DNA from: Perna viridis
Taxonomy: Eukaryota
Length of the DNA stretch: 64,000 nt
Direction of reading: 5' to 3'
NCBI GenBank assembly: GCA_037379345.1
Contig: CM074514.1
Coordinates: 2,790,001 to 2,854,000 of the forward strand
Below are positions 18,001-27,000 of this stretch, piece by piece. Numbering within the stretch: position 1 is the first letter of the stretch; each line of letters begins with the position of its first letter. The position numbers were made by a program.

Positions 18001-21000
18001 TTGCTTTAAACATAAAATTGAGCTGTATTTGATTGACATGTGATTTATGTTTTAACAAATATAGCTGTGTATTCTATGACAATAATACACATTTGTGTTG
18101 GTAACTTTTGTTTTGTTATGTTTTGTTTGTTTTTTCTTGTACTGTTTTGTCATGTTTGTAAACAGACTTATGTGTATATAATTCGGTCTCCATTTGTATT
18201 ACATGAGAGCCTCAGGAAAGATTAGTTGTTGTAAACTAACGGTGTTACCCTCTCAAAATAAAGTCTATTATTATTATTATTATTAGTGAAGAGAGATGAA
18301 ACACATAGAAGTACATTGATCTACAAACAGCTTATCAATTTTTTAAAATTTTTTTTCTGTGATACCCACAAAAGAGTTAAATGCTCTCTATATATTGGAA
18401 TCACTTCGTTCATCATCACTCTTTGATTTTTGTCATAATTATCTACGCTACCAATAGATGGATCAATCTTGTTGGTGACTTTATAGATATATTATATGGG
18501 TGTTGTAGTATATCAACTCCATGGGACTTGGCCATTTATCACAACATAGAATGATAAGGAAAATTTTTGTCACAATAATCTTCTTTCCTATTTGATGGAT
18601 TTATTTCAAATTTGGTGTGTGGCTTAAGTAGATGTGGCACATGTTGTAAGTATTTACATATCCCTTCTCTACTGATGACATATAGTATGAGAAAACATAT
18701 TTATTGTGAACATAGAGTTGTATAAAGTCATAATAAGGTCATTATTCAACTCTGTAAAGATATAAAAAATTTTTTATGTAGGCCAAGTGCTAGAGAAAGC
18801 TCTGGTTAAGATCGGTCGTGAAGATGTTGTGAAGAAATGTATATACAATGTTGAGAATGTTGAAGATGAAATGGAGGCAGCAGCTGCTAGAGTAGCTATG
18901 GATCAATCAGGTATAAATTCTACACCTTTACACATTCTATACAATTTTCTGATAAATCTGTTCATGTGAATTCTGTAGAAATTAAGATAGATAGGCTAAA
19001 AATTACGTAGGTATTAGCTATATTTTCTAGTTCTGGTTGTCTTTAACATTTCAAGCAGCTGTTTTGACCTAGTTGTCAGCTTATTGCATAACTGCTTCAG
19101 CTGATTAGCAATTCTATTAGTATTGAAAGAGCTTATCTCACTCTGTAGAGTGGATCAATTCAGAAAAATTTCTGCCCTCATAAAAAATGTTACATTGTGC
19201 TCATAAAATACATCTTGTCCAATCAGGAATGTCATGATCGACTTACATTTCCAGAATGTCATACGATTTCTGAATTGGTCCGTTATACAAGAATATGTGT
19301 AGTATTAGTTAATGCAGTCCTTCAGAATGGTTGTTGATTAGTAACAATGTTGATATAAAGGCATCTTCACTGTTTCCAGAGAAATCTGCTCATAAGGGAT
19401 TGCCACATAATCATCCTCAACAAGTAAGAATGCTTGTTTGATAGAGAAAAAAAACTACAGTGTAAACATGGTAGAATTATCTAGATGTGGTTTTTTTGAA
19501 GAGTTAATTGGTTATACATTTACATTTGATTTTTTAAGGTTTCGACACATTTACAGAAGAAGTAGGAATATCTAAAGAAGACTCGATGAAGCGGAACATG
19601 TCATTAGATGTACAGTTCGATGAACAAGATATGGTTAAGGTATTGTTAGGGATAAATGGTTTAATTTATTGGTATCATTTCTTTAAATGTGGTAATATCA
19701 CTTTGGCTATCTTTTTAAAGTATCTTCTATTGCTCACTGTGGTTATGAAGTATTAATTTGTTTTATTATTATTCTTGTATTACCATTAATTCAATAATTG
19801 CCCACTTAAATGCAGGTGTTGTGAATGATTAAAACATGCTTTTAGTGAATTTAATATATTTTTTTTTATAAGTTGTTAGGGGACTTCGAGGTGAGAAAGG
19901 TTTGATCAGAGTTGTTAGTGGTAACTTAGCAACATTGATTTTTTATTTTTTTTCCCCTACTTTCTCTCTCAGTAGATGATGTAACTCTATACTTCTATGG
20001 TCTTCTCATTCTATTTCTTATCTGTCTGATTTGTTTGGTAGTGAGATTTGTGTGAGATTTGTTTGGTAGTGAGATTTTTAAAAACTAACCATGATTTAAA
20101 TACAATAGATATTGTACTGTAACAACTGGATCACTATAACTAATAGGGTTTATTCTTTAAAGAGATGTTTCAGGATCTCATTAGTTTCTTACAATGATAA
20201 AAACTTTATAAAAAAGATGAACCTGAGTTACAAGGGTAAAATTAAGTTTCTTGTTAGATTTTCAGAGTATATAATAGAAAGAATGAAAGAAAAAGTTATT
20301 TATCTTTCTTTAATCTCTTCAGTGATTTGCTTTTAAGATAAGTTTTTGTTTTTTATTCTACAGGAATCCGAGTCTATTGCAGAATCTCCAAGCTCAGATG
20401 GCAAGCATGCACCACAGGCTTTAGAAGAAGGTAAATATCTGTATACAACAGAGCTTCCAAACTGTCCTGCTGCATTCCTTTTAGCTTTTCATGAAGGTAA
20501 AGGGTCATTGGAAAATTATCAGTTCATCCATTTTTGTGAAATGAACGGATGAAAAATAAAATACATTTCACAATGCTGACTTAAGAGTGCAATGTAAGAT
20601 GGCGAAAGTATGATACTGTGACATATGCTGCAAGTATTGCATTAAATGATTCCTGTTTATGAAATTAACTTGATTGACAATGTTATGTTATTAATGATTG
20701 CTGAAGTGCTGATCAGTGGTATGAAGATTTCAGTTTTTAAAAAAATTGGGGAAATAATTTTGAAGTATGAAAATGAAATCTCATGTGAGTCTTCATACAT
20801 GCTATCAGTATTTTAGTGGCTGTGAATGCTGTGTTGATTAACTGCTTGAATAGCTGTTCACTTCACATATAGAAACTGAACCTAGAGATGATGAAGTTGT
20901 GGTCCAAGTTGATGAACGAAGACCACTTGCTAAACAGGAGGTCAAAGGTGAAAAACAAGCTGATGATTATATGGATTTGATTGAACAGCTTGATAGATAT

Positions 21001-24000: not shown

Positions 24001-27000
24001 ATGTTGAAATACTTGGGTAACAACATATCAACTTATTTAAGGCATTTGATCTCAGGTTTTGTAATTCACCTCTTGATAAAGTGATAACATTTGTACCTCA
24101 GGTGTAGAGCCTCAGGAAACTGTTACAGAGGAAAATGTTATCTATGAAAAAGACTCAAGGCCAAGTTCTGAGGAAATAGTAGTTGATATTTTAAATTACA
24201 TGGAACATCTATCTTCTAAACCAAAGGTCAAAGGTATCAGATTGCATTACTGTTTGGACGGAGTTCATTCATTCCATTGTTTTGTTTTGTTTATCAGTTA
24301 TGGTAACTTTAGTGCATATGGTGCATCTTAAGCTTAAGCTCCGTCAGTAATAAATACAGACGGAATAACTGTCTGGTTAGAATGATTTCATTATCTGTTG
24401 ACACACACGCAAAGGGACACAGTTAAATATTTCTTAAATTTTTATCTTAGATACAGCATAATATACAATGTAAAACATGTACCTTATTTATACCACATAT
24501 TGATTAGTTTTATGACGTACTCTATTTGTTGTTAGACTTGTTTTATACTTTGCATGTGCATGTTATTCCACTGGATGTTGTCGATAAACAACTAATTGAC
24601 CTCGTTAATATTTAAGATCGAATAGACAACACAAGCTTCTTGGCAGTAACTGTTTATAGTATCTCAGTCTAATATTATGTAAACTTAATGTTAAAAGATA
24701 CTACTTTTTTCAGTATTTAATGCGAATCATGGGCACACTTTTTGCTTTTGTGCATGGCTAATGCTCTGCAAAAGATTTACCCCCTGTAAGAAGTCCAAAC
24801 TTGAACCTTAATTTAAATTTTTCTCAATCTTAGATTTGAAGAAGTTTTTTTATATTGAAGATGGTTGATATGGCTTGATATCAACATTCATCTACCAATT
24901 TGTGTCTTAATTGTGTAAATGCACTGGTTGTTAGTTAATATCTACTAAATACAAAGTAAGAAAATACCAACTGAACTTTGACCTATTTTTGGGAGAAAAC
25001 CAGTGTTCATTTGTCCTTAGTTTCATTTTTCACAGAAAAATAAAAAATCCAAATGAGTTATTGGGCTTACTGTAATTTGTTTTAGATGATGATGACGAAG
25101 GTGTTCACACCCCTCCTCCCAGTCCCGCAGAAAGAGATCAATATGAAGGTACCAACAATGTAGTCTTGTAACCTATAACTTGTTGTTAACTTACTTCAGC
25201 TTATGCTTTTCTCACTGCAGCTTAAAGGACAATTATACTTCAGGTGCAACTTCAGGAAGTTTTAGCTTCAGTTTCTCTCATTGCAGCTTAAAGGACAATT
25301 ATACTCCAGGTGCAACTTGAGGAAGTTTTAGCTTCAGTTTTAGTAAAAAGAAAATGAGAATTCCGTCCTAGCAATATCAATTGTATATTATATAATTAGA
25401 AATAAGTTCACGGTTATCATTGATGAACACTTATTAAATCATGGTCTGGAACATTTAGATTCTTAATCCATTGCATGAAATACAAAAACCATGCAATTGT
25501 TACCATGTAGAGCCCTTTATGAACGAAGGTTTTGAGTTTTTATGCTTTTTTATTAAAGCCTTTATGGAGATGAGATAAATACATGAAATTGATTCCTGTA
25601 ACTAGATATGATAATCATGGATGTCAGTAACAAAATATCTTTTCACAGAAAAATTTGATGGTTGCATTAGAATTGAGAAACTGTATTTTTTTATATGATT
25701 CTTTGTCATCAATCTTGATTTGTAAATAACTGTTTACTGGTTCTGCTGATACATTAGATTGAGGCTTCACATCTCACACACTACAGATATCTCCCAAACC
25801 ATGTACTGACTGTAGATCAGGAATGAGTGATTACATCATTAGCCTAACATTGAACAATTTCTTTTGTAAATATTAAACCTATGCTCTGGAGTATAACATT
25901 TACACATTTATAGGCTGTGGAGTAGAACCATACACATTTATAGGCCCTGGAATATAACCATACACATTAACAGGCCCTTGAGTATAACCATACATATTTA
26001 AAGGCCCTGAATTATAACCATACATGTTTATAGGCTCTGGAGTATAACCATACACACTTATAGGCCCTGGAGTATAACCATACACATATATAGGCCCTGG
26101 AGTATAACCATACGTATTTATATGCTCTGGAGTATAACCATACACATTTATAGGCCTTGGAGTATAAACATACACATTTATATGCTCTGGAGTATAACCA
26201 TACACATTTATAGGCCCTGGAGTATAACCATACAAAAGTATAGGCTCTGGAGTATAACCATACACACTCATATGCCCTGGAGTAAAACTATTCACATTTA
26301 TAGGCTCTGGAGTATAACCATACACATTTATAGGCCCTGAAGTATAACCATACACATTTATAGGTTCTGGAGTATAACCATACAAAATTATAGGCCTTAG
26401 GTTGAGAATTTTGTATTTTTGTTTATTAAGGCTATGAAACAGTTATACTTTGTTATAAGAATTGCATGAGCTGAAGTCTACTAAATCTAACACTTTTATT
26501 ACTTCACTTTTTTCATATAGATGTGAATTACACTACAAATTTATGAATTTTAAAAGCACTTTGGAAAGGGAATACATCTGCACAATTTTTGCGGTCATAT
26601 GATGGTATGGTGCTATCATTGTCTCTGTTGTCCTTTGTCAGTAGAATTTTGGTATTCTAGCAATATAATTTAATGGGTCTTGATAAAATTTTCTAAGTTC
26701 CATACCACAAAAAGAAGGTTTCTATTGAATTTTGAAGTTGCAGCCTCGGCCATTTGGGAATAAAGGCCAAAAGGATTAAAAATATTTTCTGAAGTTTTTT
26801 ATGGATCTCTATTAAATTGAATTACAATGTTCCATTCATGAGAGTTTTGATTGATTTTGGGGAGTTATGGCTCTGTCTGAATAGGATTGATGTACCAAAA
26901 GTGGACCATTAGCAAGCCATTTATAAAACTGAACTATATAACATAAGTACTACAAGGTGTACTACAAGGCTCCATACCTCACAAGTTAGTGTGTGATTGA

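What the first reader, a model, noticed from the sequence alone, without database searches (positions are those of the whole stretch)
20873..24233. Three-fold duplicated A-B exon pair (A1-B1-A2-B2-A3-B3) encoding an unrecognised repeat module
Seen: A exons share D(E/D)-(V/I)V-x-x-VD-x-RRP-x-A followed by an amphipathic (D/E)LI-x-x-LD segment; B exons share (V/F/T)E(D/E)-x-(I/V)-x-(H/Y)-x-K-x-x-R followed by a hydrophobic helix. They alternate strictly, all stay open with intact splice sites, and I saw no obvious intron similarity, implying old duplications kept by selection. Most are absent from the ORF track. I do not recognise the ~95-aa unit as a known domain. Inference: a repeated binding module or mutually exclusive cassette set.
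Basis: partly seen in the sequence, partly recalled or inferred. Interest (0 to 1): 0.7.

Follow-up and report, generated by a model that had tools for sequence, protein, structure and literature searches.

The report
Duplicated exon pairs in ankyrin tail
Six small exons just after the death domain of an invertebrate giant ankyrin gene are three old tandem copies of a two-exon unit, each exon encoding a short conserved motif plus one helix in the protein's flexible tail; this is real but fairly ordinary.

Summary
Six + strand exons (A1 20873-21037, B1 21835-21960, A2 22689-22844, B2 23079-23210, A3 23541-23699, B3 24102-24233) all have AG/GT borders, lengths divisible by 3 and phase 1 at both ends. 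The A copies and the B copies find each other well above chance among 2742 window ORFs. There is no fourth copy and no A-to-B likeness. Only the exons are still alike; the introns are not.

The window is the 3' half of a giant ankyrin gene, with ZU5, UPA and death domain followed by very long exons. The six exons open its C-terminal regulatory tail, right after the death domain.

Pfam, PDB sequences and the ESM Atlas recognise neither exon type. AlphaFold2 gives each exon an unstructured conserved stretch followed by one helix.

Most likely these are individually skippable cassette exons that add copies of two docking motifs. A mutually exclusive set is not favoured. Interest is modest.

The parts
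20873..21037 (+). Exon A1 (165 nt, phase 1-1); peptide read from 20875-21036
   Evidence: AG/GT borders and frame; A1-A3 E 4.5e-12; AlphaFold2 gives coil for residues 1-25 and a helix for 26-53, mean pLDDT 72
21835..21960 (+). Exon B1 (126 nt, phase 1-1); the most diverged B copy
   Evidence: Borders and frame; B1-B2 E 2e-3, B1-B3 not significant, leave-one-out profile E 0.0087 but ranked first among non-members
22689..22844 (+). Exon A2 (156 nt, phase 1-1); the most diverged A copy
   Evidence: Borders and frame; E about 1e-3 to A1 and A3, leave-one-out profile 9.7e-5
23079..23210 (+). Exon B2 (132 nt, phase 1-1)
   Evidence: Borders and frame; B2-B3 E 1.9e-7; AlphaFold2 gives a helix for residues 22-42, mean pLDDT 83
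23541..23699 (+). Exon A3 (159 nt, phase 1-1)
   Evidence: Borders and frame; 77% DNA identity to A1 over 110 nt
24102..24233 (+). Exon B3 (132 nt, phase 1-1)
   Evidence: Borders; 72% DNA identity to B2 over 85 nt
17570..17773 (+). Death-domain exon 1 of the same gene (ends in phase 1)
   Evidence: Pfam Death 3e-11 on ORF 17551-17937; borders read
18782..18910 (+). Death-domain exon 2 (phase 1-1)
   Evidence: Continues the death-domain frame; borders read; no separate family search was run
19539..19639 (+). Tentative tail exon (phase 1 to 0)
   Evidence: Open frame with AG/GT borders read; no homology support
20364..20430 (+). Tentative tail exon (phase 0 to 1) that hands phase 1 to A1
   Evidence: Open frame with AG/GT borders read; no homology support
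25086..25148 (+). Next predicted tail exon after B3 (63 nt, phase 1-1)
   Evidence: Sequence and frame read
47937..54692 (+). Giant tail exon (inside an open frame of 2302 codons); context that marks the gene as a giant ankyrin of the protostome layout
   Evidence: long exons downstream of the death domain in protostomes per passages of PMC5135030

Best explanation
The six exons are genuine coding exons of a giant ankyrin gene of an invertebrate. I do not take the contig for human. They form the first part of the C-terminal regulatory tail, directly after the death domain. They arose by two old tandem duplications of a two-exon unit (A+B).

Each exon encodes an acidic, mostly unstructured peptide with a conserved 12-14-residue extended motif followed by one alpha-helix. 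The motif is DEVVxxVDxRRPxA in A and (T/F)E(D/E)x(I/V)xHxKxxR in B.

Every exon is phase 1-1, as are the neighbouring tail exons, so any subset can be included without breaking the frame. I read them as additive, individually skippable cassette exons. They would give the tail up to three copies of each of two short docking motifs (multivalent binding sites).

The partner I think most likely is the protein's own ANK-repeat groove (autoinhibition). This is by analogy with the vertebrate segments AnkR_CT and AI-a, which lie in the same place right after the death domain.

Shown here: gene identity, exon structure, the duplication, constraint on the exons, and helix prediction.
Inferred only: expression, additive use, binding, and the partner.
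For: Gene identity:
- Pfam finds ZU5 (1.2e-19), UPA_2 (3.2e-22 and 7.5e-26) and Death (3e-11) in upstream ORFs, in that order.
- The best solved relatives of two of these ORFs are Ankyrin-3, -2 and -1 (3.6e-25; 1e-22).
- Open frames of 2302 and at least 1854 codons lie downstream of the death domain. That is the layout reported for protostome giant ankyrins (passages of PMC5135030).

Exon reality and constraint:
- 6 of 6 exons have AG/GT borders, lengths divisible by 3 and the same phase.
- The phase fits the death-domain exon upstream and the exon at 25086 downstream.
- Exon GC is 0.35-0.41 against 0.26-0.31 in the five introns.
- The stop-codon fraction in the introns is 0.072, so each frame has a 0.017-0.044 chance of being open by accident.
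- Exons still align while introns do not.
- dN/dS between copies is 0.39-0.66 with dS of 0.94-1.64, on 41-52 codons per pair.

Shape:
- Coil plus one helix in both models.
- Net charge is -4 to -9, and 63-72% of residues are polar.

Precedent:
- Vertebrate ankyrin tails right after the death domain carry short disordered segments rich in acidic and hydrophobic residues. These bind the ANK-repeat groove, and several discrete segments act together (PMC5779224, section 6 and passages).
- The OTBD modules of vertebrate ankyrin tails arose by successive duplications (figure legend in PMC2942773).
Against: - There are no RNA data, so neither expression nor the inclusion pattern is known.
- No sequence likeness to any ankyrin chain in the PDB. 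Profile searches at E up to 10 returned 2 (A) and 11 (B) unrelated chains, the best at E 0.079 and 0.24. The autoinhibition analogy therefore rests on position and composition only.
- The helices are not more amphipathic than shuffled versions of the same peptides. The fraction of 2000 shuffles reaching the observed hydrophobic moment is 0.11-0.63.
- The dN/dS values come from very short, near-saturated alignments and show only mild constraint.
- B1 is weakly supported as a B copy.
- The ANK repeats lie outside the window, so nothing could be docked.
Confidence: 0.6

Rival explanations
1. Mutually exclusive cassette set: each transcript uses just one A-B pair (or one A and one B), giving three alternative versions of the same tail segment.
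For: The copies are homologous, of similar length and in the same phase, which is also true of mutually exclusive exons. The copies have diverged a good deal (37-52% identity among A, 24-40% among B), as alternative versions would.
Against: - Like exons are interleaved (A-B-A-B-A-B) rather than adjacent, so exclusivity would have to act on exon pairs.
- All lengths are multiples of 3, so multiple inclusion causes no frameshift.
- The introns are 234-797 nt, too long for steric exclusion (the length requirement is general knowledge).
- All borders are GT-AG.
- Among 61 inverted-repeat pairs in 20432-25090, no single site pairs with a site before each copy. The 25 longest listed are AT-rich, and 22 of them are 70-78% complementary.
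Confidence: 0.1
2. A folded ~96-residue domain: the A helix and the B helix of one pair pack together into a small compact repeat, so the array is a structural rod or spacer rather than a set of linear docking motifs.
For: The strict A-B alternation kept through two duplications suggests that the pair is the unit of selection. Each exon contributes one confident helix.
Against: Single-exon models show long unstructured N-terminal halves and pTM of only 0.34-0.40. The peptides are highly acidic and polar. The spliced A+B chain was not folded, because the joined step was left out, so this rival is not really tested.
Confidence: 0.15
3. Relics: copies 2 and 3 (or all six) are unexpressed, decaying duplicates or chance open frames inside a long intron of the ankyrin tail.
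For: There is no expression evidence. dN/dS of 0.39-0.66 is not far from neutrality on such short alignments. B1 and A2 are strongly diverged.
Against: - With dS around 1 or more and introns beyond alignment, neutral copies should have lost their frames and splice sites. Instead 6 of 6 keep frame, AG/GT borders and phase.
- The chance that all six frames are open by accident is roughly the product of 0.017-0.044 per exon, about 5e-10 before allowing for the choice of frames.
- The core motifs are invariant in all copies.
Confidence: 0.07

Closest known systems
Autoinhibitory tail segments of vertebrate ankyrins (AnkR_CT; AI-a of ankyrin-B/G), PMC5779224
   Same: They sit in the disordered tail right after the death domain. 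They are short conserved stretches with acidic and hydrophobic residues, and several discrete segments act in combination. Alternative splicing removes AI-a in giant ankyrin-G (passages).
   Different: No detectable sequence likeness. The vertebrate segments are single-copy and 13-48 residues long. Here there are two motif types, each in three copies and each followed by a predicted helix. Binding was not tested.
Obscurin/titin-binding-related domain (OTBD) modules I-III of vertebrate ankyrin C-terminal domains (Hopitzan et al. 2006; seen only through a passage and a figure legend of PMC2942773)
   Same: Modules in the ankyrin C-terminal domain that multiplied by successive duplication.
   Different: The cited text describes one OTBD module as vertebrate-specific. 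No OTBD sequence was available, so likeness is untested. The primary paper is not held.
Amphipathic helix in the ankyrin-B regulatory domain that binds Hdj1/Hsp40 (Mohler et al. 2004; seen only as a reference title and a partner-table row in PMC9386378)
   Same: A helix in the divergent tail that serves as a docking site for a partner.
   Different: The helices of this window are not significantly amphipathic by the shuffle test.
Giant ankyrins of protostomes (Drosophila Ank2, C. elegans UNC-44; molluscs included in the survey of PMC5135030)
   Same: ZU5-UPA-death domain followed by very long exons downstream of the death domain. The tails evolve fast and contain internal repeats (passages).
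   Different: The passages I read describe the long exons, not small duplicated exons between the death domain and the long exons.

Membership tests
Canonical ankyrin gene (ANK repeats, ZU5-ZU5-UPA, death domain) | ZU5 domains | tested here: met
   Pfam ZU5 1.2e-19 (ORF 496-807) and 0.0018, below the cut-off (ORF 4052-4372). ORF 6321-6713 matches residues 213-283 of an Ankyrin-2 ZU5-ZU5-UPA chain, 1e-22.
Canonical ankyrin gene (ANK repeats, ZU5-ZU5-UPA, death domain) | [quoted passage not shown] | tested here: met
   UPA_2 3.2e-22 and 7.5e-26; Death 3e-11. Best PDB relatives are Ankyrin-3, -2 and -1.
Canonical ankyrin gene (ANK repeats, ZU5-ZU5-UPA, death domain) | 24 N-terminal ANK repeats | not testable with these tools
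   The window begins in the first ZU5 domain; the upstream part of the gene is not in it.
Giant ankyrin, protostome layout | Very long exon(s) downstream of the death domain | tested here: met
   Open frames of 2302 codons (47846-54754) and at least 1854 codons (58438 to the window end) on the same strand, with phase-1 borders. Layout per PMC5135030 passages.
Any curated protein family or solved structure (Pfam-A, PDB sequences) | Significant profile match of the A or B peptides | tested here: not met
   Pfam: 0 of 6 peptides reach a cut-off; the single listed hit is E 0.14, 12.8 bits against a cut-off of 29.7. PDB profiles: best E 0.079 (A) and 0.24 (B), unrelated proteins. ESM Atlas: no usable hit for A3 or B2.
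Vertebrate ankyrin autoinhibitory tail segments (AnkR_CT / AI-a) | Location in the tail right after the death domain | tested here: met
   A1 starts 1963 nt after the end of death-domain exon 2, with two tentative small exons between them.
Vertebrate ankyrin autoinhibitory tail segments (AnkR_CT / AI-a) | Shared sequence pattern with AnkR_CT / AI-a | tested here: not met
   The PDB holds fusion chains that carry these segments (5Y4D, per PMC5779224). Profile searches at E up to 10 returned no ankyrin chain.
Vertebrate ankyrin autoinhibitory tail segments (AnkR_CT / AI-a) | Binding to the inner groove of the ANK repeats | not testable with these tools
Mutually exclusive exon cluster | Homologous exons directly adjacent to each other | tested here: not met
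   The order is A1-B1-A2-B2-A3-B3, and A and B are unrelated.
Mutually exclusive exon cluster | A mechanism that enforces one-of-n use (frameshift on double inclusion, too-short introns, competing RNA pairings) | tested here: not met
   All lengths are divisible by 3. Introns are 234-797 nt. No one-to-many docking/selector pairing was found among 61 inverted-repeat pairs, of which only the 25 longest were shown. This last point is weak negative evidence.
Mutually exclusive exon cluster | Transcripts with exactly one copy | not testable with these tools
   No RNA data are available.
OTBD of vertebrate ankyrins | Sequence likeness to OTBD modules I-III | not tested
   No OTBD sequence was available from any tool, and the primary paper is not held.

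The most novel reading that the evidence does not exclude
The A and B exons encode a multi-copy, splice-tunable autoinhibitor. Each A and B motif would occupy part of the long ANK-repeat groove of the same ankyrin, and the number of pairs spliced in would set how strongly membrane partners are excluded. That would be a graded 'rheostat' version of the single-copy autoinhibitory segments known in vertebrate ankyrins. It would have evolved independently in a lophotrochozoan lineage and use sequence motifs with no known relatives.
Probability: 0.15. Interest if true: 0.55.

Novelty: new variant of a known kind. Interest (0 to 1): 0.3.

Why it matters
If the exons are expressed as predicted, they show how an invertebrate ankyrin tail gains regulatory or docking capacity. 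The route would be duplication of a two-exon module made of symmetric (phase 1-1) exons, the same route proposed for vertebrate tail modules. They would also give two short conserved motifs that can be tested for binding. This is of interest to people who study ankyrin regulation or exon duplication. It does not open a long-standing question, and the general phenomenon is familiar.

Tried and rejected
- A and B as diverged copies of one ancestral exon: rejected. hhalign probability is 0.4%. The summed local scores of the 9 A x B pairs were reached by 243 of 1000 column shuffles.
- More copies elsewhere in the window, including the giant exons: none.
- Pfam, PDB profiles and ESM Atlas: nothing usable. 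The best PDB hit for A (E 0.079) is the C-terminal tail of a mitochondrial RNA-binding protein. I take it for chance.
- Amphipathicity of the helices: not above shuffles, so I do not call them amphipathic.
This is not evidence either way.
- Docking/selector RNA pairings for mutually exclusive splicing: nothing stands out.
- A candidate exon at 19380-19423 (44 nt): rejected, because its phase does not fit the next exon.
- From recall only: paxillin-type LD motifs and AKAP-type RII-binding helices were considered for the helices. The hydrophobic spacing fits neither pattern well by eye, and Pfam lists no such family.
- Which pair of copies is 'closest' (A1/A3 versus B2/B3): this cannot be read as conflicting histories, because three sequences without an outgroup have only one unrooted tree.
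- Fold search was not run; a single helix would match anything.
- The bacterial/archaeal genome collection and the phage, plasmid and E. coli collections were not searched. They cannot hold relatives of an animal ankyrin tail.
- Hopitzan et al. 2006 is not held.
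Full report
**What is there.** The exons are:
- A1 20873-21037 (165 nt)
- B1 21835-21960 (126 nt)
- A2 22689-22844 (156 nt)
- B2 23079-23210 (132 nt)
- A3 23541-23699 (159 nt)
- B3 24102-24233 (132 nt)

All six follow an AG and end in AAG|GTA. All lengths are divisible by 3. Each starts with two bases that complete a codon and ends with one spare base, so every exon is phase 1-1. The window holds no N.

**Is the likeness more than chance?** I cut the window into all 2742 six-frame open frames of 15 codons or more and searched them with each peptide alone and with leave-one-out profiles.
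- A1 and A3 find each other at E 4.5e-12. A2 finds both at 8e-4 to 2.5e-3.
- B2 and B3 find each other at 1.9e-7. B1 finds B2 at 2e-3, but B1-B3 alone is not significant.
- In 6 of 6 leave-one-out runs the omitted copy is the first hit after the members. The weakest are A2 (9.7e-5) and B1 (0.0087).
- Profiles of all three copies find nothing else in the window; the next best hits are E 4.4 and 1.5. So there are exactly three copies of each type here.
- A and B are not related to each other: hhalign probability is 0.4%, and 243 of 1000 column shuffles reach the observed A x B score.

**Age and constraint.**
- A blastn self-comparison of 18000-30000 links A3 to A1 (77% over 110 nt, E 2.7e-16), B3 to B2 (72% over 85 nt, E 0.003) and, weakly, A3 to A2. 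It finds no match between the introns of the array.
- Synonymous differences are near saturation (pS 0.53-0.67, dS 0.94-1.64). dN/dS is 0.39-0.66 on only 41-52 codons per pair.
- Exon GC is 0.35-0.41 against 0.26-0.31 in the five introns. With the introns' stop-codon fraction of 0.072, each frame would be open by accident with probability 0.017-0.044.
- The duplications are therefore old, and the exons, unlike the introns, have been held in place. The dN/dS figures alone would be weak evidence.

**Context.**
- Upstream ORFs on the same strand match Pfam ZU5 (1.2e-19), UPA_2 (3.2e-22 and 7.5e-26) and Death (3e-11). Of the 10 ORFs I sent, 5 matched these families, 1 had a below-cut-off chance hit and 4 had none.
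- The nearest solved proteins of two of these ORFs are Ankyrin-3, -2 and -1.
- Downstream lie open frames of 600, 2302 and at least 1854 codons. Long exons after the death domain are the layout reported for protostome giant ankyrins, molluscs among the groups surveyed (passages of PMC5135030).
- The window is thus the 3' half of a giant ankyrin gene of an invertebrate. I do not take it for human: GC is 0.29-0.40, and the long exons are on the protostome side of the death domain.
- By eye, the death domain is split into exons 17570-17773 and 18782-18910. Two tentative small exons follow (19539-19639 and 20364-20430) and hand phase 1 to A1.
- After B3, further predicted exons at 25086-25148, 29496-29636 and 32408-32494, and the large exons, are again phase 1-1.
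- The A-B array is therefore the opening stretch of the C-terminal regulatory tail. That tail is built throughout of symmetric exons which can be skipped singly without breaking the frame.

**What the peptides look like.**
- Pfam recognises none of the six (one hit at E 0.14, far below its cut-off).
- Profile searches of all PDB chain sequences give only chance-level hits.
- The ESM Atlas gives no usable hit for A3 or B2.
- AlphaFold2 was run on each exon type by itself with the three copies as the alignment. It models A1 as coil for residues 1-25 then a helix for 26-53 (mean pLDDT 72, pTM 0.34). It models B2 as mostly coil then a helix for 22-42 (mean pLDDT 83, pTM 0.40).
- The conserved motifs lie in the coil part.
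- The peptides are acidic (net charge -4 to -9) and 63-72% polar. Their helices are not more amphipathic than shuffles.
Whether A and B pack together therefore stays open.

**How it most likely works.**
- In vertebrates the ankyrin tail (death domain plus C-terminal domain) is described as unstructured, variable between species and regulatory. It binds the membrane-binding ANK repeats, and its listed partners include Hsp40 and obscurin (passages of PMC9386378).
- Chen et al. showed that several short disordered segments line the ANK-repeat groove and block membrane partners. One of them (AI-a) lies in the tail right after the death domain. An essential Glu and neighbouring hydrophobic residues make the contacts, and splicing removes AI-a in giant ankyrin-G (PMC5779224, section 6 and passages).
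- The OTBD modules of vertebrate tails are said to have arisen by successive duplications (PMC2942773, figure legend).
- By position, composition and exon architecture, the A and B exons fit this picture: repeated, skippable docking motifs in the tail.
- I commit to additive, individually skippable cassette exons that provide multivalent docking sites. The protein's own ANK-repeat groove is the most likely partner. I give the structural part (ankyrin tail, old two-exon duplication, exons under constraint) about 0.9, and the autoinhibition part about 0.25-0.3.

**Against a mutually exclusive set.** Like exons are interleaved rather than adjacent. Multiple inclusion keeps the frame. The introns are 234-797 nt. 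No one-to-many RNA pairing stands out. Only transcripts can settle this.

**Novelty.** Five full-text searches listed no paper on duplicated small exons after the death domain of an invertebrate ankyrin. They were not aimed at the motifs, and I read only listings and passages. The supplements of PMC5135030, which hold mollusc ankyrin sequences, could not be opened. I rate the finding as a new variant of a known kind (module duplication in the ankyrin regulatory tail) and of modest interest.

Noticed in passing
window 17707-17781 and 17815-17889: The last ~67 nt of death-domain exon 1, together with its GT donor and a few intron bases, are repeated in tandem 108 nt downstream. In the core, 76 of 77 aligned bases are identical. 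This gives a second possible donor, or it is a recent slippage or assembly duplicate.
   Followed up: partly
window 43820-43924 and 45069-45191 (+): A second duplicated small tail exon. Two open frames encode nearly the same ~25-residue acidic peptide and end in phase 1 at 43907 and 45159. The DNA is alike only over the coding part. These are adjacent homologous exons, so they are a better candidate for alternative use than the A-B array.
   Followed up: partly
window 29558, 41889, 42024, 42228 (+): Four copies of a 'D(G/N)T(V/I) followed by a basic stretch' motif lie in tail exons. From memory they resemble the basic motifs in vertebrate ankyrin C-termini (the obscurin-binding region). This was not tested.
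   Followed up: no
window 25880-26400: A minisatellite with a 30-nt period (82-87% identity between shifted copies) lies in the intron after exon 25086-25148. It reads open on both strands.
   Followed up: no
window 8274-8718: A tandem repeat in an intron of the ZU5-UPA region shows up as repetitive open frames on the + strand.
   Followed up: no
window 47937-54692 and 36600-38402: The long exons carry their own internal tandem peptide repeats (a ~13-residue unit near 48.6 kb and a ~12-residue unit near 50.2 kb) and long serine runs. The tail as a whole seems prone to internal duplication.
   Followed up: no
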